The translations under genes were made by a program, and so were the position numbers. Below, piece by piece: positions 3,677 through 58,152 of a DNA stretch of 64,000 bases (its first letter is position 1; every line of letters starts with the position of its first letter). The notes beneath the pieces were generated by a model. That model ran no database searches, was not told where the DNA came from, and was given only the letters and a program-made list of their open reading frames with translations. The DNA comes from Candidatus Iainarchaeum sp. Lineage in GTDB: Archaea; Iainarchaeota; Iainarchaeia; Iainarchaeales; GCA-2688035. Location of the stretch: assembly GCA_028713935.1 (NCBI GenBank), contig JAQTNI010000001.1, positions 1,464 through 65,463 on the forward strand, given 5' to 3'.

Positions 3677-4464
3677 AGCGCCATATTTTGAAATGGAAAC
3701 AGGCCCAGTTTTCTGAATTAAAGAAAATTGCTTCGCAGTACAAGGTAATTGCAATTGCGGATTTGACAAATTTTCCAGCAGATTTGTTTCAAGGGGTAAG
3801 AAAAAAATTGCAGGGAAAGGCAATTGTGCGTGTTTCCAAGACAAAGGTAATCAAAAAGGCTTTGGAAGAGGCAAATTTGAAGTCAACTGAATTGATTCCT
3901 GTTGTAAAGGGAAGCGTTGCAATTATTTTTACTGACATGGATTCTTTCGAGCTTTATGGCTTGCTTAAAAGAAACAAGGGAAGTGTTTCCGCAAAAGTCG
4001 GTTCCATTGCGCCCGCGGATATTGTTGTTCCTGCAATTGACACTGGTTTGCCTCCTGGCCCGGCGCTTTCTGATTTGAAGGCAGCAGGCCTTGAAGTGAG
4101 GGTGCAGGGCTCTACAATTGCAATTGTAAAGGACAAGGTTGTTGCAAAAAAAGGCGAGGCAATAACAAAGCCTGTTGCTGGAGTGCTTGCAAAGCTTGAC
4201 ATCAAGCCAATAAAAGTCGGCCTGAATATTGTTGCGTGTTATGAGAATGGCCAGTTGTTCCTGCCAAAGGTTTTGGACATTGATTCTGAACAGGTTTTTG
4301 CGCAGATTATGAAGGCTGTGCAGAGCGCAGTGAATTTGTCAGTTGAAATTGTTTATCCTACAAAGGAAACAATTGAATTGATTATTGCAAAGGCTGTAAG
4401 GCAGGCAAATGCAATTGATGCCTTGGCAAAGGCAAAACAGCCTGCGGAAGAAAAAAAGGAATAA
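3673..4464 (+). CDS. rpl10: 50S ribosomal protein L10 / acidic protein P0 (uL10)
   Basis: P0-type N-terminal domain and the archaeal L1-L10-L12 order. Confidence 0.85.
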
Positions 4465-23433: not shown

Positions 23434-23787
23434 TCATTTTTCCTTGTATCCAAATTTTTTGTTGTATTTGTCATGGCTTAAGATATCAAGGACAAAAGCT
23501 ATTATTTCTATTTGTGTTTCTCCTTCTGTTAAAGCGTAAAACATTCGCCAATAATTTGGCAAGCCAACCCAAAAAAGATTTTTTATTCCGTATTTTTCCT
23601 TGTATTCTTTTGGAATAAGGTGTTTATTTATTGGTTCGCCGTAATGAATGTTTGCTTTTATCAATTCGACTTTTCTGCCAACTGCTGCCAAAATTGTCTT
23701 TTCAATCTTTGAATGTTCTGCTTCTTTGTTCAAATAGTTGTAAACTTCTTCTGCTTCCGGGGACAATTTTATTCTGACGATTTTCAT
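23434..23787 (-). CDS. RelE/ParE-superfamily toxin-like protein
   Basis: 117 aa with a toxin-like C-terminus (...IIAFVLDILSHDKY). 4-bp overlap with the upstream small gene. Confidence 0.5.
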   Translation of the reverse strand: MKIVRIKLSPEAEEVYNYLNKEAEHSKIEKTILAAVGRKVELIKANIHYGEPINKHLIPKEYKEKYGIKNLFWVGLPNYWRMFYALTEGETQIEIIAFVLDILSHDKYNKKFGYKEK

Positions 23788-24002
23788 AATTCAAGGCCTT
23801 TTGCAATAGCGCGTTTAAGGTTGGCATTAGAATTTGTAATCCAGGTAATGCCCTTCAAACTCACGGCAATCTTGTTGCTGTCTTCCAAATACTGCAAAAC
23901 CACTTTAAGGGTGTTATGGTTAACCTGCTTTGGAAGCCTTCTTTTAAGCTCTGCAATTGAAAGCGCGCTCTCATCAGCCCGCTTCAAAACATTCTCAACC
24001 AT
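23784..24002 (-). CDS. Putative antitoxin / small DNA-binding protein
   Basis: Small ORF overlapping the toxin start (ATGA). The ORF track extends to 24083. Confidence 0.4.
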   Translation of the reverse strand: MVENVLKRADESALSIAELKRRLPKQVNHNTLKVVLQYLEDSNKIAVSLKGITWITNSNANLKRAIAKGLEL

Positions 24003-24142
24003 AATCACTGTATTCAAAGTGGGAGAATGCTCTAATTTCTGTTCCTTTTGAACCAAAACACTTCTCGACAAAAACATCACCAAAAGTTATTAACTAATAA
24101 GTAATTAGCACGAAAGAATATAAAAAGGTTTTGGTTACTTTA

Positions 24143-24213
24143 TGGACTCGCCGGGAGTTGAACCCGGGTTTCGGCCTTGCGAAGGCCGCTTCTTACCGTT
24201 GGAATACGAGCCC
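24143..24213 (-). tRNA. tRNA-Ala (anticodon CGC), intron-less, no encoded CCA
   Basis: Full cloverleaf read by eye: acceptor GGGCTCG/CGAGTCC with the G3:U70 Ala identity pair, anticodon stem CGGCC/GGCCG, loop TTCGCAA, T-arm CCGGG-TTCAACT-CCCGG. Confidence 0.85.
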
Positions 24214-24867: not shown

Positions 24868-25045
24868 GTGGGGTTACAGGGATTTGAACCCTGATCAACT
24901 GGTCGCTCATTATTTTACCCTGCCTTTTTGTTGTTTACCAAAGAAAAATGGTTCTTTTCTTTGGGCAACTTACACTTTCTTTTCTTGCCAAGAAAAGAAA
25001 GGGCAGGTCTGGAGCCAGTCGCACTGCCTGGTTATGCTATAACCC
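24868..25045 (-). tRNA. tRNA-Trp (anticodon CCA) with a ~105-nt intron in the anticodon loop
   Basis: Acceptor GGGGTTA/TAACCCC, D-stem GCAT/GTGC, anticodon stem ACTGG/CCAGT, loop CTCCAGA, T-arm CAGGG-TTCAAAT-CCCTG, discriminator A. Intron is roughly 24907-25011. Confidence 0.75.
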
Positions 25046-25264
25046 CGTTGGGATAATTGAAGAATTTAAAGTTTTTAAAATCAGAGGTTTTGCATTGCAA
25101 AACCTTTCTTTCCCAGGGCTTTCTTTTTTAAAGAAAGGCCTGCCAAAGTAGCTCACTTGTTGAGTGCATAAAACAACTTTGTTTTGTTGTGTTTTTAAAG
25201 ATATGGAATTTTTTATTTTTCAAATCCGTCAATTTAATATATTCTAATTGCGCTACTATTACTG

Positions 25265-33510: not shown

Positions 33511-33550
33511 CTTACACTTTCTTTTTCTTTCAAAGAAAAAGGAAGGGCAG

Positions 33551-33711
33551 TGCGTCCGCCGGGATTCGAACCCGGGTTACGAGCTCTTTCCTGCTTCAAT
33601 TTTGTTTATTATTTGTTGAAGTTCTTTCTTTTGGGCAACTTACACTTTTCTTTCTTTCAAGAAAGAAAAGGGCAGTGGGAAGCTCGAATCCTACCGCTAG
33701 ATTACAGACGC
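33551..33711 (-). tRNA. tRNA-Gly (anticodon CCC) with a ~90-nt intron
   Basis: Acceptor GCGTCTG/CGGACGC (one G-U pair), D-loop AGCGGTAGG, anticodon stem CGAGC/GCTCG, loop TTCCCAC, T-arm CCGGG-TTCGAAT-CCCGG. Intron is roughly 33585-33674. Confidence 0.75.
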
Positions 33712-50622: not shown

Positions 50623-50868
50623 GCGGGGGTGGCAGAGCGGTCTAATGCGCACGCCTGGAAAGGCCTTTTCTTGCAAGCAAGAAAAGCCCTGGGAAAAGAA
50701 CAATTTGCTTTGCAAATTGGTTGATTCCCCGGTTCTCCCCAAAGGATAATTTCAGTTAGAAATTTTTTTCTTTGGGGTGGACTGCAGACCTTTCTTTTTA
50801 TTAAAAAGAAAGGGATATAGAGAGCGTGTTCTCGAAAGGGAGCGCGAGTTCAAATCTCGTCCCCCGCG
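50623..50868 (+). tRNA. tRNA-Ser (anticodon GGA) with a ~160-nt intron; its 3' end is the integration target (attL)
   Basis: GCGGGGGTGGCAGAGCGGTCTAATGCG 5' half, anticodon stem CACGC/GCGTG, loop CTGGAAA, long variable arm, T-arm GCGAG-TTCAAAT-CTCGT, acceptor 3' CCCCCGC. Confidence 0.75.
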
Positions 50869-50958
50869 TTAAACGAAAAGTTCAAATCCAATTGAACGGA
50901 AAATTCAAAAAAGAAGCTTTTTTATTTTGCTTGGAGCATAATTGTTATTGGTGGTATA

Positions 50959-51180
50959 ATGGATCAAACTTTTAAGGTTGTGATTGAGAACGGCATGGAC
51001 GGTTATTTAATTGCAGAAGTTCCAGAATTGCCAGGTTGCTATTCTCAAGGAAAAACCATGGAAGAGCTTTTAGGCAATATTAAAGAGGCAATTGAACTCT
51101 ATTTGGAATCGCTGCAAGAACTGGATAAAAAACCAGAAAAACGGTTTGTTGAAATAAAAGAAGTTGTCGTAAATGCCTAA
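50959..51180 (+). CDS. hicB: HicB-like antitoxin (UPF0150)
   Basis: GYLIAEVPELPGCYSQGKTMEELLGNIKEAIELYLE. Confidence 0.75.
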   Translation: MDQTFKVVIENGMDGYLIAEVPELPGCYSQGKTMEELLGNIKEAIELYLESLQELDKKPEKRFVEIKEVVVNA

Positions 51181-51400
51181 GCTCAAGCTGCTTGCGCCAA
51201 AAGAACTAATAAAAATCATTGAAAAACTCGGCTTCAAGTTTTTACGGCAAAAAGGAAGCCACGCAACCTTTGTCCATCCAGACGGAAGAATGACAGTAAT
51301 ACCAATACACAGCAACTCAAAAATAGATAGAGGATTGCTCTTGAAAATAATAAAAAAAGAACTGCAAATGGAAAGGCAAGAATTCGAAATATTATTGTAA
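51173..51400 (+). CDS. hicA: HicA-like mRNA interferase toxin
   Basis: KELIKIIEKLGFKFLRQKGSHATFVHPDGR. Confidence 0.75.
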   Translation: MPKLKLLAPKELIKIIEKLGFKFLRQKGSHATFVHPDGRMTVIPIHSNSKIDRGLLLKIIKKELQMERQEFEILL

Positions 51401-51441
51401 AAAAGGGCTGTGTTATAAATTGTCCGAAATGCAAGAAGAAA

Positions 51442-51710
51442 ATGGTTGAGGAAAAAGGCGAAACTCCCGAAGGCGCTACATACCATTATCACAAGTGTCC
51501 TAACTGCTGCGAGGAAATAGTTGACATGAAACAGTTGCACGCTGTTGCACAGCAATACAGGGAAATGAAAAAATACACTGCAAAAATCAGCAAATGGGGA
51601 GAAGCCTCGGCATAAGAATTCCAAAAGAACTCGCAGAACAACACTCCCTGAAACAAAACGGCGAAGTAACCTTGGTTCCGGAAAAAAAAGCAATAAAAAT
51701 AGTTGCATAA
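51442..51710 (+). pseudogene. Zinc-ribbon / AbrB (SpoVT)-domain gene split by an apparent +1 frameshift in a G4 run (~51596-51599)
   Basis: Frame 1 reads ...CPNCC...KISKWGEASA*. Frame 2 continues MGRSLGIRIPKELAEQ...VTLVP (AbrB swapped-hairpin motif). The W-G and S-L-x-I-R-I-P halves of one AbrB motif lie in two different frames. Confidence 0.45.
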
Positions 51711-51724
51711 AACGAAGCCAGAAA

Positions 51725-52168
51725 GTGCTTGGGCTGATTCAAAAGATAAATATAAAAATACGGGAAGTGCAATATATGGCCATGGCACGAACACTCAAAC
51801 AAAGAAAAAACCGAAGAAAAACAGGTGGCGTACTTGCTGTCAGCCCCAATCCACGTGAGGTATATCGTGAAGCTGATGGTTGGAGTGTTTTTCCAGATGT
51901 TCGGTACTATGTGCCTGGTAAGCGCATGACTAATTTTCAAGTGGCTCTCCGATTTTCCAATAAAAAAGGTTCCGATCGTTGGCGCTATAACCAATTTTTG
52001 AAACAACATGGTTTTATGGTAACAATGGGCGGTGATATTGTAAAGTCGCTTCCCGGCAAGAAATTTAGAATGCTAACAAAAACAGAGAAAGACAAAGTGT
52101 TACGCTTGTTAAAGTCGGGCTGGGCAGTATCTTATGGCCCAAGGCCAAAAAATACACGACAAAAATAA
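51725..52168 (+). CDS. Conserved hypothetical protein, paralog A, ending 8 nt before the att repeat region
   Basis: About 55% identical to the ORF at 53250-53687. Shared motifs RRKTGGVL, FPDVRY, GSDRWxYNQFLK, GDIVKxLPG and C-terminal SGWAxxYGPxPK. Confidence 0.5.
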   Translation: MLGLIQKINIKIREVQYMAMARTLKQRKNRRKTGGVLAVSPNPREVYREADGWSVFPDVRYYVPGKRMTNFQVALRFSNKKGSDRWRYNQFLKQHGFMVTMGGDIVKSLPGKKFRMLTKTEKDKVLRLLKSGWAVSYGPRPKNTRQK

Positions 52169-52279
52169 CCTGATGCTTGTCACGCGCATCATTAACGGCA
52201 TAGTGTTCAAATCTCGTCCCCCGCGTGTTTTTATTTCATAAACAATATGTTTTTAAATTGAAAACAGAATGTTTTTATT

Positions 52280-52822
52280 ATGCTTGCGAGTGAATTGTTT
52301 TCTTCAAAGGAGAGAATTGGGCTTATCAAGATTCTTTTTTATACGCCCAATTTGGAATTAAAAGTTAGGTCTCTTGCTCGGTTTGCAAAAGTAAGCCCTG
52401 CTCTTGTTTCCGGCACGATTGCGATTCTTAAGAAACAAGGAGCTATAAACAAAGGCAAAATTGATTTGTTGCATCCTTCTGCAAGGGCCTTGAAAATACT
52501 ATTGAATATTGAAAGCCTCACCTCTGCCAAATTTGTTCCTGAAATAAGAAGCATTTTCAAGGATTGCAATGGCATTGGTTTGTATGGTAGTTGGGCAAAC
52601 GGAACCAATTCAAAAGACAGTGATTTGGATTTTTGGGTAAAATCAGAATCTGAAAGCGAGGAAAAGTCGGCTAAAATAAGTCGTTTTGTTAAGCAGAAGC
52701 TTGGCTTGGAAGCCAGCATAATTATTCTTACACAAAAAAGGCTGAAAGAATTGAAAGAAAAGGATTTTGTTTTTTATTCAATGCTGTACAATTGTTTTTT
52801 GTTGTGGGGCGAAGGAATATGA
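52280..52822 (+). CDS. Minimal nucleotidyltransferase (MNT) with N-terminal wHTH
   Basis: GSWANGTNSKDSDLDF pol-beta-like nucleotidyltransferase motif. Confidence 0.7.
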   Translation: MLASELFSSKERIGLIKILFYTPNLELKVRSLARFAKVSPALVSGTIAILKKQGAINKGKIDLLHPSARALKILLNIESLTSAKFVPEIRSIFKDCNGIGLYGSWANGTNSKDSDLDFWVKSESESEEKSAKISRFVKQKLGLEASIIILTQKRLKELKEKDFVFYSMLYNCFLLWGEGI

Positions 52823-53235
52823 TTGATTTTAATGAGTGCCTTGCAAAAGGCCTTTTGGCAAGAATTCCCGCTTCAAGGGAAAAAGCTTTGCAGAGTATTG
52901 AGAAAGCAAAAGAACTATTGGAAGAAGCAAAAGCAAGCCTTGAAGAGGAAAGAATCAATTCCACAGTAATAGTTGCCTATCTTGCAATTTTTCATGCTGC
53001 AAGGGCACTGCTTTTCAAAGATGGTTACAGGGAAAAAAGCCACGAATGCGTAATCCGCTATCTGGAAGAAAAATATCCTGAAATAAAACCAGGGCAGATT
53101 GAAGCCTTGGAAAAATACAAAAGTGAAAGAACCCACACACAATACGATGTGAGTTATAATCCAAGCGAAGAACAAGCAGAAAAAATGATAAAATTCACGG
53201 AAAAATTCATCCAAACAATAGAAGAAATGATTTAA
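52819..53235 (+). CDS. HEPN-domain protein (partner of the MNT)
   Basis: IVAYLAIFHAARALLFKDGYREKSHE HEPN pattern. ATGA overlap with the MNT gene. Confidence 0.65.
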   Translation: MIDFNECLAKGLLARIPASREKALQSIEKAKELLEEAKASLEEERINSTVIVAYLAIFHAARALLFKDGYREKSHECVIRYLEEKYPEIKPGQIEALEKYKSERTHTQYDVSYNPSEEQAEKMIKFTEKFIQTIEEMI

Positions 53236-53249
53236 GCTGGTTCGCTTCT

Positions 53250-53687
53250 ATGCCTTGTTTTTTGGAAAATTATAAATATGGGCATGTGCTTAATACTATT
53301 GGTAGTTTAATGCGCGGTGTAAACAAAAATAGGAGAAAAACTGGTGGCGTACTCCGTGTTGGGAAACGACCACTTGAAGTTGGGATTTCGTTGGAAGATA
53401 GCGGTTTTCATGTTTTTCCCGATGTTCGATACCGCAGTGACCGAATGAGTAGATTTAAAACTTCTCGCAGGTTTTCTAACAAAATAGGTTCAGATCGCTG
53501 GCACTATAACCAGTTTTTAAAACCTCGCGGCTTTTGGATTACCCAAGCGGGCGATATTGTAAAACCCCTTCCGGGCAATAAATTTAGGTTTTTAAAGCTA
53601 TCCGAATTTCGGAAAGTTAGGGATTTGTTATGGTCGGGTTGGGCAAAGAGATACGGCCCAAAACCAAAAACAACTAAGCGAAAATAG
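53250..53687 (+). CDS. Conserved hypothetical protein, paralog B, ending just before the att repeat
   Basis: See paralog A. The start is probably the internal MRGVNKNRRK near 53310. Confidence 0.5.
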   Translation: MPCFLENYKYGHVLNTIGSLMRGVNKNRRKTGGVLRVGKRPLEVGISLEDSGFHVFPDVRYRSDRMSRFKTSRRFSNKIGSDRWHYNQFLKPRGFWITQAGDIVKPLPGNKFRFLKLSEFRKVRDLLWSGWAKRYGPKPKTTKRK

Positions 53688-54131
53688 CATCATTCTTGCC
53701 ACGCGCATCTTTAACAGTAAGGTGTTCAAATCTCGTCCCCCGCGTAATTTCAATTAATAGTCCAGAGTGTTGGCATATTAGTTGTAAGATAAAATCTTGG
53801 TTTGCTCATATTTGCCCTGTGTGCTTTTGCGAGAGCAAAATATTGGATTAGAGGCCGCAGAGGCTGTTTATTGGTGATGTTTTTGCGTTCTTGCTTTTCT
53901 AATTCTTTTTGGAGCCCACCTGTAACTTACAGATTTTCTGTTGTGATGATTTTTTTTGCTTAATAACTTTAAGAACAGGGTTCCAATTCTTCGGGCATTT
54001 TCCTGCGGATTTGAAGAACAATCAACAATATACAACGGTTTCTTATGTTGTATTGCAAGAGCCTTTGCTTCAAGTGCGCAGGCATAACATTCACGTTCGA
54101 TATCTTTGATACTTACAGAATGCCGTGTTTT

Positions 54132-55383: not shown

Positions 55384-55887
55384 TTGTTAAATGCTTTTTT
55401 TATGCAGGAAGAATTCAGGCTTGTTTCAAATACGGAATTGGCAGGCCCTTTAAGGCATTTTGTTGAAGCTATTTTTGCCAAACATATTTCTAATCCGGGT
55501 TCTTTGAAGGTTTTTATTTCAAACGGCGGCCAAATGAAAGGGATTGCAAGGGGCAATGTTTTGATTGGATTTTGCGCCTTTATGCCGCTTGGCAATGATT
55601 CTGTTTTAATAAGCCAAATCTGGACAAATACGAAGTCAGTGGCTGCAAGAGAATTCAAAAGAGATTTTGGCAGGACTCCAACAGAATATCTTTTTGGAGA
55701 TTTTTTGAGGAAAGGAATTTCCCATTTTCATCATCTAGGGGTAACAGCTTTAGGTGCAAGATTTTTGGCAAGGCTTGAGAAAAACGCCCTGGTTGCTAAA
55801 AAACAAAGCGGGTTTGAAATAACAAATAGGGCAATTGAAAAAGCAAAAAAAACAAGGCAATTAAGGCCTCTCAGGGTTATTCATTGA
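55384..55887 (+). CDS. Hypothetical protein
   Basis: ORF only. Confidence 0.3.
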   Translation: MLNAFFMQEEFRLVSNTELAGPLRHFVEAIFAKHISNPGSLKVFISNGGQMKGIARGNVLIGFCAFMPLGNDSVLISQIWTNTKSVAAREFKRDFGRTPTEYLFGDFLRKGISHFHHLGVTALGARFLARLEKNALVAKKQSGFEITNRAIEKAKKTRQLRPLRVIH

Positions 55888-56997: not shown

Positions 56998-58152
56998 ATG
57001 GGCAAAACTTTTGGCATCAGCATAGGGCTTGGCATTGTAAAGCCAAATTTTGAAAAGCCGTTTGAAGAGAATTTTGAGAAGGCTTTTTCTGCTTTCAAGG
57101 AATACAAAAAGGCAAAAATTTCTGAAAGGAAAGCGTTTTTTGGAGTGCTTTCAAGGAAGGACTGGGAAAGCCTTGTAGGAATAAAGCTGATTGAAAATTC
57201 TTCCATAGAAGGAAAAAAATTTCTTGAAGGGGAATACAAAAAAATTCTTTTTTTTGATGAAGAAAGGCTTTTTCTTGAAACAGTTGAACTGAACAGGGAA
57301 ATGGAAAACAATCTTTTTCTTCTGAAGAAAAAAAGAAGTTTTGCAAAAAGCATTGCAAAGGGAATTTTCAGGGTAAAAAATGCTTTTTCTGGCTTTGAAA
57401 GGCTTTTCAAGAAAAAAATTCTTTTGGAAATGGGTTTTTTCAGGCTGCTGCCTTTTTGTTATTCCCTGATTGAAGAACTGCCTGAATCAAAAAAACAATT
57501 TGTGAAATACAATGAAAGCGATGCAATTGAGTTTGTTTCAAAGCCGGGCCAGAGCCTTAATAAAATTGAAAAAGAATTATTGCGGAACATTCTGCTTGCA
57601 GAAAAAATTCTTGCAAAAAAAGGCCTGAAACTTTTTTTTGGCAGTGTTTATCCAAAAACAAAAAGAATGGGCTTGCTGAAAAAGATTGGAATTGGCGAGG
57701 ACCAGAATTTTTTGGAATTGCATTTGCACATGGGAAATTTTGATTCCGCTGCTGAAATGGCAGAACTGTACAACAAAATAATTGGCTTTTTTGAAGCAAA
57801 TCCCCTGTTAATTGAAGAGGAGCGCAGGCTTTTTTATGGCCTTAAAAACCCAAGAAGGTTAAGCCTGAAAGGCATTGAAGAGCAAATTCGGGCAAGGTTT
57901 GGAAAAAACAGCAGGCTTGAAAAACCAGGCAGGCCTGATATTGATGCAATTATTTCGGCTTTGAACAATAGAAAACAGAAATTTTTGGCGAGAGATTATG
58001 CGACTGTTTTTATCAGGCCTGAGCTTGGCACAATTGAAATCAGGGCTTTTGGAACAAAAGGAAACGGAACAAAAAGCATAAGGAAAAACCTTCATGAAAA
58101 CATTGTTTTTTTTGAACAGTTCATGAAAAAACTTGAATTGGCTTCAGCGTGA
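56998..58152 (+). CDS. Hypothetical protein, possibly carboxylate-amine-ligase-like
   Basis: 384-aa ORF. The TIEIRAFG segment is reminiscent of the GCS2 family, but this is weak. Confidence 0.3.
   Translation: MGKTFGISIGLGIVKPNFEKPFEENFEKAFSAFKEYKKAKISERKAFFGVLSRKDWESLVGIKLIENSSIEGKKFLEGEYKKILFFDEERLFLETVELNREMENNLFLLKKKRSFAKSIAKGIFRVKNAFSGFERLFKKKILLEMGFFRLLPFCYSLIEELPESKKQFVKYNESDAIEFVSKPGQSLNKIEKELLRNILLAEKILAKKGLKLFFGSVYPKTKRMGLLKKIGIGEDQNFLELHLHMGNFDSAAEMAELYNKIIGFFEANPLLIEEERRLFYGLKNPRRLSLKGIEEQIRARFGKNSRLEKPGRPDIDAIISALNNRKQKFLARDYATVFIRPELGTIEIRAFGTKGNGTKSIRKNLHENIVFFEQFMKKLELASA

What the first reader, a model, noticed from the sequence alone, without database searches (positions are those of the whole stretch)
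50623..53745. Tandem integrated elements at tRNA-Ser(GGA), bounded by three 22-bp direct repeats and loaded with toxin-antitoxin modules
The last 22 nt of the tRNA (GTTCAAATCTCGTCCCCCGCGT, 50848-50869) recur exactly at 52205-52226 and 53724-53745. Copies 2 and 3 share a further ~25 bp of upstream similarity (CACGCGCATCaTTAACgG...GTGTTC). This gives two segments of ~1.36 and ~1.52 kb, each ending with a paralog of the same unknown gene. The cargo is HicB-HicA and a zinc-ribbon/AbrB gene in the first segment, and nucleotidyltransferase (MNT)-HEPN in the second. No recognisable integrase is present. So these are either decayed elements, elements mobilised in trans, or elements that use a novel recombinase.
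Basis: partly seen in the sequence, partly recalled or inferred. Interest (0 to 1): 0.8.

Follow-up and report, generated by a model that had tools for sequence, protein, structure and literature searches.

The report
Tiny toxin-antitoxin islets at tRNA-Ser
Two very small (1.36 and 1.52 kb) pieces of DNA without an integrase gene, each carrying a toxin-antitoxin pair and a copy of an otherwise unknown basic protein, sit one after the other at the end of a serine tRNA gene in a DPANN archaeon; this is a miniature version of a well-known kind of genomic island, not a new mechanism.

Summary
The 22-mer GTTCAAATCTCGTCCCCCGCGT occurs exactly three times (0 expected by chance). Copy 1 is the 3' end of a real tRNA-Ser(GGA), which default tRNA finders miss because it has a 162-nt intron.

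The copies bound units of 1357 and 1519 bp:
- Unit 1 carries HicB-HicA, a frameshifted Zn-ribbon/AbrB gene and ORFan A.
- Unit 2 carries MNT-HEPN and ORFan B.

The ORFans are 60% identical and under purifying selection (dN/dS 0.25, dS saturated). They have no homologue among about 15 billion proteins. Neither unit encodes an integrase.

The window is a 'Candidatus ainarchaeum' MAG. Relatives with the same GuaA/tRNA-Ser neighbourhood have a single core and no TA cargo. Two other Iainarchaeia genomes carry about 1.53-kb integrase-less toxin islets bounded by the same tRNA-Ser core. One of them shares the element-side arm motif.

Best reading: these are non-autonomous mini-islands, added one after another by site-specific recombination that crosses over in the T-loop. 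The recombinase is unseen and presumably acts in trans, or has been lost. This is a new small variant of a known kind (tDNA islands, CIME-like accretion). Interest is moderate.

The parts
50623..50868 (+). tRNA-Ser(GGA), the integration target. Exon 1 is 50623-50660, the 162-nt intron 50661-50822, exon 2 50823-50868.
   Evidence: ARAGORN in intron mode. Missed by default ARAGORN and by Rfam at gathering threshold. Orthologous intron-containing tRNA-Ser(GGA) genes occur in L003, L006, L007, L012 and L017.
50848..50869 (+). Core copy 1 (attL-like). It lies inside the intact tRNA: G53, T-loop, T-stem 3' strand, acceptor 3' strand, discriminator, plus 1 nt.
   Evidence: Exact match; position within the tRNA.
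50870..52226 (+). Element 1 (1357 bp including its distal core).
   Evidence: Bounded by core copies 1 and 2. All genes are on the + strand.
50879..50897 (+). Partial second copy of the core start (AGTTCAAATC), 10 nt after copy 1. It forms a GTTCAA...TTGAAC palindrome. Possibly a protein-binding site or a relic of an older att site.
   Evidence: (10/10 match at 50879-50888) and the sequence. Not tested further.
50959..51180 (+). HicB antitoxin.
   Evidence: PF15919, 42.8 bits against a cut-off of 27.
51173..51400 (+). HicA toxin; overlaps hicB by 8 nt.
   Evidence: PF07927, 66.5 bits against a cut-off of 27.
51421..51710 (+). Zn-ribbon/AbrB (MazE-like) gene, disrupted. A frameshift at about 51594-51600 splits the ...ISKWG/SLGIRIP... 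motif, and there is no canonical start codon before the first CxxC.
   Evidence: PF04014, 35.2 bits on the second frame. Three-frame translation. The Logan contig L020 has the identical sequence.
51776..52168 (+). ORFan A: 130 aa, pI 11.2, with its own TATA-like box about 25 nt upstream.
   Evidence: 60% identical to ORFan B. dN/dS 0.25. No Pfam, PHROG, NCBIfam, PADLOC or PDB match. No homologue in the 5.8e9-protein or 1.84e9-representative searches.
52181..52204 (+). Element-side arm of element 1: CACGCGCATCATTAACGGCATAGT.
   Evidence: Conserved with the arm of element 2. The TTAAC[G/A]G..G.G part also lies next to the core in L003.
52205..52226 (+). Core copy 2, the junction between elements 1 and 2.
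   Evidence: Crossed by Logan contig L020.
52227..53745 (+). Element 2 (1519 bp including its distal core).
   Evidence: Bounded by core copies 2 and 3.
52280..52822 (+). MNT-type nucleotidyltransferase with an N-terminal winged-helix region (antitoxin of the MNT-HEPN pair).
   Evidence: PF01909, 34.6 bits against a cut-off of 21; weak MarR and Crp HTH hits. PADLOC PDC-M05A. The upstream 76 nt are conserved with L021.
52819..53235 (+). HEPN toxin; its start overlaps the MNT stop codon (ATGA).
   Evidence: PF05168, 70.4 bits against a cut-off of 22. PADLOC PDC-M05B.
53310..53687 (+). ORFan B: 125 aa from the ATG that aligns with A (GenBank aa from 53250); pI 11.6.
53700..53723 (+). Element-side arm of element 2: CACGCGCATCTTTAACAGTAAGGT.
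   Evidence: A 29-nt stretch of arm plus core is 90% identical to the right end of L003.
53724..53745 (+). Core copy 3 (attR-like), the distal end of the array.
   Evidence: Crossed by Logan contigs L018 and L019.

Best explanation
The locus is an array of two non-autonomous mini-islands in a DPANN archaeon (Iainarchaeia).

Each unit was once a small circle with three parts:
- an addiction or defence module (HicBA, or MNT-HEPN);
- a basic ORFan gene;
- an attP made of an element-specific arm of about 24 nt followed by a 22-nt copy of the 3' end of tRNA-Ser.

A site-specific recombinase that is not encoded in the units exchanged strands within the T-loop part of the core. It was most likely a tyrosine integrase, supplied in trans by a helper element or the host. 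The exchange regenerated the tRNA and displaced the old 3' fragment to the far end of the insert. A second, related element then used the regenerated tRNA-proximal site, which gave tRNA-core1-E1-core2-E2-core3.

The toxin-antitoxin pairs would make the inserts hard to lose.

Shown here: the repeat architecture, the cargo, the absence of an integrase, sites without the inserts in relatives, and analogous islets elsewhere. Inferred: the recombinase type, supply in trans, the order of insertion (E2 first) and any present-day mobility.
For: 1. Standard tDNA-island signature: an intact tRNA plus two same-orientation terminal 3' fragments, with identity beginning at G53/T-loop. This matches the T-loop/junction crossover classes, and only tyrosine integrases are known to target tDNAs (PMC4383910).

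2. The core is 22/22 identical in all copies. The adjacent paralogous DNA is about 70% identical, third codon positions are 51% identical and dS is 1.4. At 73% identity an unprotected 22-mer stays perfect with p of about 0.001. Regeneration of the core by recombination explains this.

3. Relatives with the same neighbourhood have one core and no TA cargo. L006 has GuaA at 78% identity. L007 has GuaA at 56% and the CDGSH gene at 76% on the other side.

4. The same core bounds a 1527-bp islet in AR10 at tRNA-Ser(GCT). It carries a HigB/Gp49-like toxin pair and a membrane protein, with a 27-nt exact repeat. The core also bounds a 1534-bp Fic islet in SMAG_U8022 at tRNA-Ser(GGA). Neither has an integrase.

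5. The L003 islet shares the arm motif TTAACAG.AAGG.G directly upstream of its core, although it has no ORFan. The arm therefore belongs to the recombination site, not to the gene.

6. L006 keeps 17/18 nt of E2's left terminus immediately after its tRNA. This reads as a scar of an E2-like insert.

7. A related MAG contig (L024) carries MNT-HEPN at 85% nt identity and starts within about 8 nt of E2's left boundary. That is expected at a polymorphic junction.

8. Tandem re-use of one att site is documented for archaeal and bacterial tyrosine-recombinase elements (PMC6563490; PMC5704250).

9. The assembly is supported by Logan contigs.
Against: - No integrase was found in the units, among ten larger unassigned ORFs of the window, or near the L017 islet. 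The rest of the genome could not be searched.
- No free attP-bearing plasmid or virus was found. Two viral-contig scans gave 0 hits, and the metagenome scan gave only the L003 organism.
- No circular-junction or empty-site contig turned up in the Logan assemblies.
- GC content equals the host's and the paralogs are anciently diverged, so the inserts may be old and immobile.
- Signs of decay exist: the frameshifted AbrB gene and the degenerate core in L003.
- No relative has exactly the same flanks minus the inserts. The gene just downstream differs in L006 and L007, so the 'empty site' evidence is supportive, not perfect.
Confidence: 0.5

Rival explanations
1. Fossil remnants. The two units are what is left of larger, integrase-encoding elements after internal deletions (CIME formation by decay). 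They are no longer mobile. The TA pairs survived because losing them is costly, and the repeats are frozen scars.
For: - No integrase in or near the units.
- Host-like GC.
- Saturated dS between the paralogs.
- A broken Zn-ribbon/AbrB gene.
- A degenerate core in the L003 islet.
- Toxin cargo directly 3' of tRNA genes with no surviving repeat: window tRNA-Ala, L015 and L026.
- CIMEs are described as arising by exactly this route (PMC5704250).
Against: - Four independent islets in three genomes measure 1357, 1519, 1527 and 1534 bp. Random deletion should not converge like that.
- The cores in the window and in AR10 are still perfect.
- The noncoding arm is better conserved (19/24) than the neighbouring coding DNA.
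- The ORFan is under purifying selection.
Confidence: 0.3
2. In-situ duplication. A segment holding the ORFan and the tRNA 3' fragment was duplicated by unequal crossing-over, and TA cassettes were later inserted between the copies. No site-specific integration of circles took place.
For: - The paralogous segment (51806-52240 against 53325-53759) is collinear without gaps.
- The ORFan family exists only at this locus.
- MNT-HEPN modules occur elsewhere as discrete units whose homology starts at the same nucleotide as in E2 (L021, L025).
Against: - With dS of 1.4 the duplication would be ancient, yet the 22-mer is perfect in all three copies and identical to the tRNA.
- The duplication does not explain how the first tRNA fragment arose.
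- Both TA cassettes would have had to land exactly at the core boundary.
- Islets with the same core in AR10 and L003 have no ORFan at all.
Confidence: 0.08
3. Self-mobilising minimal elements. The basic ORFan is itself a new kind of small recombinase, or the att-recognition subunit of one, and acts on the adjacent arm+core.
For: - It is the only gene shared by both units and always lies 36 nt from the arm+core.
- It is very basic (pI 11.2-11.6) and under purifying selection.
- It has no known family.
Against: - At 125-130 aa it has no HUH motif, no conserved histidine and no serine- or tyrosine-recombinase motif.
- Islets with the same core and arm in L003, and the same core in AR10, lack it.
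- The family has only two members, both at this one locus.
Confidence: 0.07
4. Assembly artefact. The repeats and the tandem order result from mis-joining of strain variants in the MAG.
For: Related MAG contigs break at or near the core (L002/L004, L011, L024).
Against: Logan contigs assembled from the reads of two runs cross core 2 and core 3 with 0 mismatches to the window. The complete AR10 genome shows the same kind of repeat.
Confidence: 0.02

Closest known systems
tDNA-integrated genomic islands made by tyrosine integrases (the signature used by Islander; Hudson, Lau and Williams 2015, PMC4383910)
   Same: An intact tRNA gene plus displaced 3' fragments in the same orientation. Identity runs from the T-loop to the end of the gene. 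Tandem arrays at one tDNA are known. A small deletion near the discriminator in the displaced fragment is a described form of damage, and L003 shows one.
   Different: No integrase gene. The units are 1.36-1.52 kb, below Islander's 2-kb floor, and the integrase filter would also reject them. Standard pipelines therefore never report this class. The host is a DPANN archaeon and the tRNA has a 162-nt intron.
CIMEs (cis-mobilizable elements) and tandem accretion in Streptococcus ICESt1/ICESt3-type islands (reviewed in PMC5704250)
   Same: Elements that keep attL and attR but have no integration or transfer genes. They sit in tandem at the 3' end of a tRNA or other target gene, in three-att-site arrays built by successive site-specific events.
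   Different: No neighbouring ICE or IME that could mobilise them in cis is seen. The system is archaeal, not conjugative. The units are far smaller and consist of TA cargo plus one ORFan. Origin by decay is not shown.
Archaeal cryptic integrated elements and SSV-type proviruses (Thaumarchaeota iMGE survey, PMC6563490; SSV integrase partition, from my own knowledge)
   Same: Archaeal elements that integrate into tRNA genes. They form tandem arrays and often carry TA or HEPN genes.
   Different: The smallest element in that survey is 2.6 kb and encodes its integrase. SSV-type elements split their int gene across att. Here no ORF crosses the core and no integrase fragment is present.
Integron cassettes and Acinetobacter pdif modules (from my own knowledge)
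   Same: Works like them in outline: short integrase-less cassettes, often TA pairs. Each ends in a recombination site, they are stacked head to tail, and a recombinase encoded elsewhere moves them.
   Different: No IntI next to the array. The sites do not fold as attC hairpins and are not dif-like palindromes. The site is a tRNA 3' end.

Membership tests
tDNA-integrated genomic island (tyrosine-integrase type) | Intact tRNA gene plus a terminal fragment of that gene, in the same orientation, on the correct (3') side. | tested here: met
   Three exact copies, all on the + strand; copy 1 is inside the tRNA.
tDNA-integrated genomic island (tyrosine-integrase type) | The identity block starts at a known crossover subsite (anticodon loop, T-loop, or T/acceptor junction). 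| tested here: met
   Identity starts at G53, just before the T-loop TTCAAAT. Subsites as described in PMC4383910.
tDNA-integrated genomic island (tyrosine-integrase type) | An integrase gene inside the island. | tested here: not met
   Every ORF in 50870-53745 is accounted for and none is an integrase. Nor was one found among ten other ORFs of the window.
tDNA-integrated genomic island (tyrosine-integrase type) | An unoccupied site in related genomes. | tested here: inconclusive
   L006 and L007 share GuaA-tRNA-Ser(GGA) with one core and no TA cargo, but their immediate downstream genes differ from the window's. The closest relative has GuaA at only 78% identity.
CIME (cis-mobilizable element) | attL and attR are retained while integration and transfer genes are absent. 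| tested here: met
CIME (cis-mobilizable element) | Derived by decay of an ICE or IME and mobilised by an adjacent element with a matching integrase. | tested here: not met
   No adjacent element or integrase in the window. Whether it arose by decay cannot be tested here.
SSV-type (self-partitioning integrase) provirus | The int ORF spans attP, so Int(N) reads into one att site and Int(C) reads out of the other. | tested here: not met
   The ORFans stop 36 nt before the core. Promoter regions of hicB and MNT follow the cores. No integrase domain was found.
Integron cassette array | An IntI gene and attI at the head of the array, and attC sites that fold as imperfect hairpins. | tested here: not met
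   The upstream neighbours are a Zn-ribbon protein and GuaA. Arm+core DNA folds no better than shuffled sequence (z = 0.28 and -0.56).
Xer-exploiting elements (IMEX, pdif modules) | The recombination site is a dif-like pair of inverted Xer-binding arms around a short spacer. | tested here: not met
   In copies 2 and 3 the 5' side of the T-loop (TAGTG, AGGTG) is not complementary to CTCGT, so there is no palindrome. XerA binding was not tested.
Type II TA families of the cargo (HicAB; MNT-HEPN) | Both partners score above the Pfam gathering cut-off and lie in an overlapping two-gene operon. | tested here: met
   HicB 42.8 bits (cut-off 27), HicA 66.5 (27), NTP_transf_2 34.6 (21), HEPN 70.4 (22). 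The gene pairs overlap by 8 nt and 4 nt. PADLOC PDC-M05A/B.

The most novel reading that the evidence does not exclude
Iainarchaeia may harbour a distinct class of minimal mobile cassettes of about 1.5 kb that target the T-loop/acceptor end of tRNA-Ser. They would carry only a toxin module and a short attP, be constrained in length (1519, 1527 and 1534 bp in three genomes), and be moved by a recombinase or packaging system that has not been identified. The basic ferredoxin-fold ORFan could be an element-encoded att-recognition factor. Island finders cannot see such cassettes, because they require an integrase and a size of at least 2 kb.
Probability: 0.12. Interest if true: 0.75.

Novelty: new variant of a known kind. 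Interest (0 to 1): 0.45.

Why it matters
The locus shows that toxin-antitoxin and defence genes in the tiny genomes of DPANN archaea can sit in att-bounded units of only 1.4-1.5 kb at tRNA genes. Such units are smaller than the smallest archaeal integrated element in the Thaumarchaeota survey cited here (2.6 kb; PMC6563490). Pipelines that demand an integrase and a minimum size would reject them.

If the units still move, they would be the simplest integrative elements seen in archaea. They would also point to a helper integrase specific for tRNA-Ser.

The locus gives a practical warning too: default tRNA finders miss the long-intron tRNAs of this lineage, which hides the att logic.

Tried and rejected
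1. Homologues of the ORFan. The word-indexed search of 5.8e9 proteins returned only the two paralogs. The full HMMER profile search of 1.84e9 representatives added one spurious NHL-repeat protein. Pfam, PHROGs, NCBIfam, PADLOC and PDB sequence searches found nothing.

3. A free attP or a helper element. The core and the arm+core patterns gave 0 hits in IMG/VR. The metagenome scan returned only the L003 organism.

4. An integrase in the window. Ten larger ORFs were scanned and none matched. Nothing was found near the L017 islet either.

5. Alternative junctions in read-level assemblies. The Logan contigs only confirm the MAG order. Look-ups for the upstream Zn-ribbon gene, HicB and ORFan A found nothing on record, and one look-up used a wrong coordinate.

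6. Split-tRNA 3' half or tRNA-like minihelix. Rejected, because copies 2 and 3 lack the T-stem and acceptor 5' strands.

7. A retro-element primer-binding site complementary to the tRNA 3' end. Rejected: there is no reverse transcriptase, all genes are on the tRNA strand, and copy 1 is the tRNA gene itself.

8. attC-like hairpins. Rejected.

9. Compositional anomaly. None.

10. Context of MNT-HEPN relatives (L021-L025). None lies next to a tRNA or a core, so no parent element with an integrase was recovered.

11. A repeat for the TA-like pair next to tRNA-Ala. None.

Full report
**1. The observation**

The 22-mer GTTCAAATCTCGTCCCCCGCGT occurs exactly at 50848, 52205 and 53724 on the + strand. 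There are no further matches at up to three mismatches, and none is expected by chance. The spacings are 1357 and 1519 bp.

Default ARAGORN and Rfam at gathering threshold do not call a tRNA here. ARAGORN in intron mode finds tRNA-Ser(GGA) with a 162-nt intron at the canonical 37/38 position. I place the gene at 50623-50868, with U8 and discriminator G. The repeat is therefore the last 21 nt of the tRNA plus one base: G53, T-loop, T-stem 3' strand, acceptor 3' strand and discriminator.

Three other tRNAs in the window also have long introns.

The window is a MAG named 'Candidatus ainarchaeum sp.', with locus tags PHD95_00350 and PHD95_00365. This is a DPANN archaeon of the Iainarchaeia/Diapherotrites group.

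**2. Content of the two units**

Pfam confirms the cargo above gathering cut-offs.
- Unit 1 has HicB (50959-51180) and HicA (51173-51400). It also has a Zn ribbon followed by an AbrB/MazE domain (51421-51710).
- Unit 2 has MNT with an N-terminal winged-helix region (52280-52822) and HEPN (52819-53235). This pair also matches the PADLOC candidate defence pair PDC-M05A/B.

The Zn-ribbon/AbrB gene is broken. A 1-nt frameshift splits the ISKWG/SLGIRIP motif, and no canonical start codon precedes the first CxxC. A Logan assembly has the same sequence.

Each unit ends with a paralog of an unknown gene (51776-52168 and 53310-53687). The two are 60% identical, E = 7e-45. They are real genes: dN/dS is 0.25 and identity by codon position is 73/68/51%. 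They are also old, with dS of 1.4, which is saturated. Both are very basic (pI 11.2 and 11.6).

**3. The ORFan**

It has no homologue in 5.8e9 clustered proteins. A full HMMER profile search of 1.84e9 representatives added only a spurious NHL-repeat hit. It matches no Pfam, PHROG, NCBIfam, PADLOC or PDB sequence family.

Its role is unknown. A nucleic-acid-binding accessory or cargo protein is the most I can infer.

**4. Why the repeats are att sites and not a plain duplication**

The paralogous DNA (51806-52240 against 53325-53759) is collinear at about 70-75% identity. The core is 22/22 identical in all three copies, and the 24 noncoding bases upstream of it are 19/24 identical. At 73% identity an unconstrained 22-mer stays perfect with p of about 0.001.

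Identity begins at the T-loop and runs to the end of the gene. This is one of the recognised crossover classes for tyrosine integrases at tRNA genes, the only recombinase family known to target them (PMC4383910).

Copies 2 and 3 cannot form a T-arm or a minihelix, because the complementary 5' strands are absent. They do not fold better than shuffled sequence either. They are therefore neither tRNA-like structures nor attC-type hairpins.

**5. Comparative evidence**

A scan of one genome per species for the 21-nt core gave 15 loci, all from Iainarchaeia-like MAGs.

Sites without the inserts:
- L006 (DeMMO3_25) has GuaA at 78% identity and the orthologous intron-bearing tRNA-Ser(GGA). It has one core and no TA genes.
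- L007 has GuaA (56%), tRNA-Ser(GGA), one gene, and then the CDGSH protein (76%) that lies just beyond the array in the window. It also has one core and no TA genes.
- The match is imperfect, because the gene immediately downstream differs among the three genomes. The lineage is isolated: the next GuaA relatives are at 61% identity or less.

Occupied sites elsewhere:
- The complete AR10 genome (L001) has a second exact copy 1527 bp downstream of tRNA-Ser(GCT), as a 27-nt repeat. It encloses a membrane protein and a HigB/Gp49-like toxin pair.
- SMAG_U8022 (L003, seen again as L016/L017 in metagenomes) has a degenerate copy 1534 bp downstream of tRNA-Ser(GGA). It encloses a winged-helix-Fic protein.
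- Neither islet has an integrase or the ORFan.
- The L003 right end shares TTAACAG.AAGG.G directly upstream of its core with the window's arms. The arm is therefore a feature of the recombination site.

Other traces:
- L006 keeps 17/18 nt of E2's left terminus directly after its tRNA.
- L024, from another 'Ca. ainarchaeum' MAG, has MNT-HEPN at 85% nucleotide identity. That contig begins about 8 nt from where the core would end, and the pair is followed by unrelated genes.

Toxin-type genes lie directly 3' of tRNA genes without any surviving repeat at the window's tRNA-Ala, at L015 (Fic) and at L026. The L026 pair is about 40% identical to the pair at the window's tRNA-Ala. Together these suggest a hot spot with turnover and decay.

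**6. What was not found**

- No integrase in the units, in ten other ORFs of the window, or near the L017 islet.
- No attP-bearing virus or plasmid.
- No alternative junctions in the Logan contigs, which only confirm the order across cores 2 and 3.
- No compositional anomaly.

The rest of this genome and the whole AR10 genome could not be searched with the tools and caps available.

**7. Mechanism**

The best-supported account is successive site-specific integration of two related small circles at the T-loop of tRNA-Ser(GGA). Each circle carried a TA module, the ORFan and an arm+core attP. The recombinase is encoded elsewhere. E2 probably came first, given the scar in L006, and E1 then entered the regenerated tRNA-proximal site. 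The TA pairs would stabilise the inserts.

The main rival is that these are immobile remnants of larger elements (CIME formation by decay; PMC5704250). Several observations argue against pure random decay:
- four islets in three genomes are of similar size (1357, 1519, 1527 and 1534 bp);
- the cores are perfect;
- the arm is conserved;
- the ORFan is under purifying selection.

With n = 4 the size clustering is only a hint. In-situ duplication, a self-encoded novel recombinase and assembly error are each unlikely, for the reasons given under the rival explanations.

**8. Comparison with known systems and verdict**

The locus meets the architectural criteria of a tDNA island and of a CIME-type tandem array. 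It fails the criterion of carrying an integrase. It also fails the tests for SSV-type partitioned integrases, integron cassettes and Xer/dif modules.

It works like a stack of integrase-less cassettes. It is best filed as a new, very small archaeal variant of tDNA-integrated, non-autonomous islands. The smallest archaeal integrated element in the Thaumarchaeota survey is 2.6 kb and has its own integrase (PMC6563490). Islander-type pipelines reject anything under 2 kb or without an integrase, so this class would go unreported.

Interest is moderate (0.45). The finding is a clear, well-bounded example with some unexplained regularities, not a new principle.

Noticed in passing
window 24868-25046(-), 33550-33711(-), 45980/46109-46303(+), 50623-50868(+); L003, L006, L007, L012: This lineage has unusually long tRNA introns: 162 nt in Ser(GGA), 105 nt in Trp, 90 nt in Gly and over 100 nt in Glu. 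The orthologous tRNA-Ser(GGA) intron ranges from 91 to 228 nt among relatives. Default ARAGORN found only 1 of the 5 tRNAs, and Rfam at gathering threshold found 3.
   Followed up: partly
window 23434-24077 (-), just 3' of tRNA-Ala(CGC) at 24143-24213 (-): A two-gene pair (a 97-aa winged-helix-like protein and a 117-aa protein) sits directly downstream of tRNA-Ala with no tRNA-fragment repeat. It resembles a TA pair by arrangement but has no Pfam support. A pair about 40% identical sits directly downstream of tRNA-Ser(GCT), next to GuaA, in L026 (9071-9696).
   Followed up: partly
window 51421-51710: The Zn-ribbon/AbrB gene of element 1 is a pseudogene or carries a consistent assembly error. 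It has a 1-nt frameshift in the AbrB core motif and no canonical start codon. The Logan contig L020 has the identical sequence.
   Followed up: yes
window 50879-50897: Ten nt after core copy 1 the first 10 nt of the core recur (AGTTCAAATC), forming a GTTCAA-N6-TTGAAC palindrome. AR10 and L003 also have short partial core repeats (CCCCGCGT, CCCGCGT) 20-60 nt inside their left ends. These may be protein-binding sites or relics of older att copies.
   Followed up: no
window units; L001 654-2201; L003 2033-3588: The unit lengths are 1357, 1519, 1527 and 1534 bp. Three islets with unrelated cargo in three genomes fall within 15 bp of each other. No explanation; n is too small for a test.
   Followed up: no
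L006 about 3915-3936 (-), immediately 3' of its tRNA-Ser(GGA): 17 of 18 nt are identical to the left terminus of element 2 (GTTTTTATT[T/G]CATAAACA), although L006 has no MNT-HEPN at this site. The same MAG carries MNT-HEPN on another contig (L025).
   Followed up: partly
L024 1-1003: A contig from another 'Ca. ainarchaeum' MAG starts about 8 nt after the position of the core. It carries MNT-HEPN at 85% nt identity to element 2, followed by two methyltransferase-like genes instead of the ORFan and core. L011 ends exactly at the core, and L002 and L004 overlap within the tRNA. Assemblies fork at this site.
   Followed up: partly
L023 5325-5410 and 6946-7031: An 86-nt direct repeat (79% identical, 1621 bp apart) brackets a 167-aa gene and an MNT-HEPN pair in a Diapherotrites contig. 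The second copy overlaps the 3' end of HEPN. This may be another repeat-bounded TA unit or a HEPN gene remnant.
   Followed up: no
L001 640-720 (-): The right end of the AR10 islet keeps a whole T-arm and an extra 7-bp hairpin, and an upstream GCGGAGCGAG can pair with the acceptor and T-stem 3' strands. It folds well (z = -2.7). It looks like a larger, diverged tRNA-Ser fragment carried in that element's attP.
   Followed up: no
window 56998-58152 (+) and 55402-55887 (+): Two ORFs (384 aa and 161 aa) a few kb downstream of the array have no Pfam match. The 384-aa ORF has a weak PADLOC hit to an archaeal Argonaute-associated nuclease model (E = 0.003).
   Followed up: no
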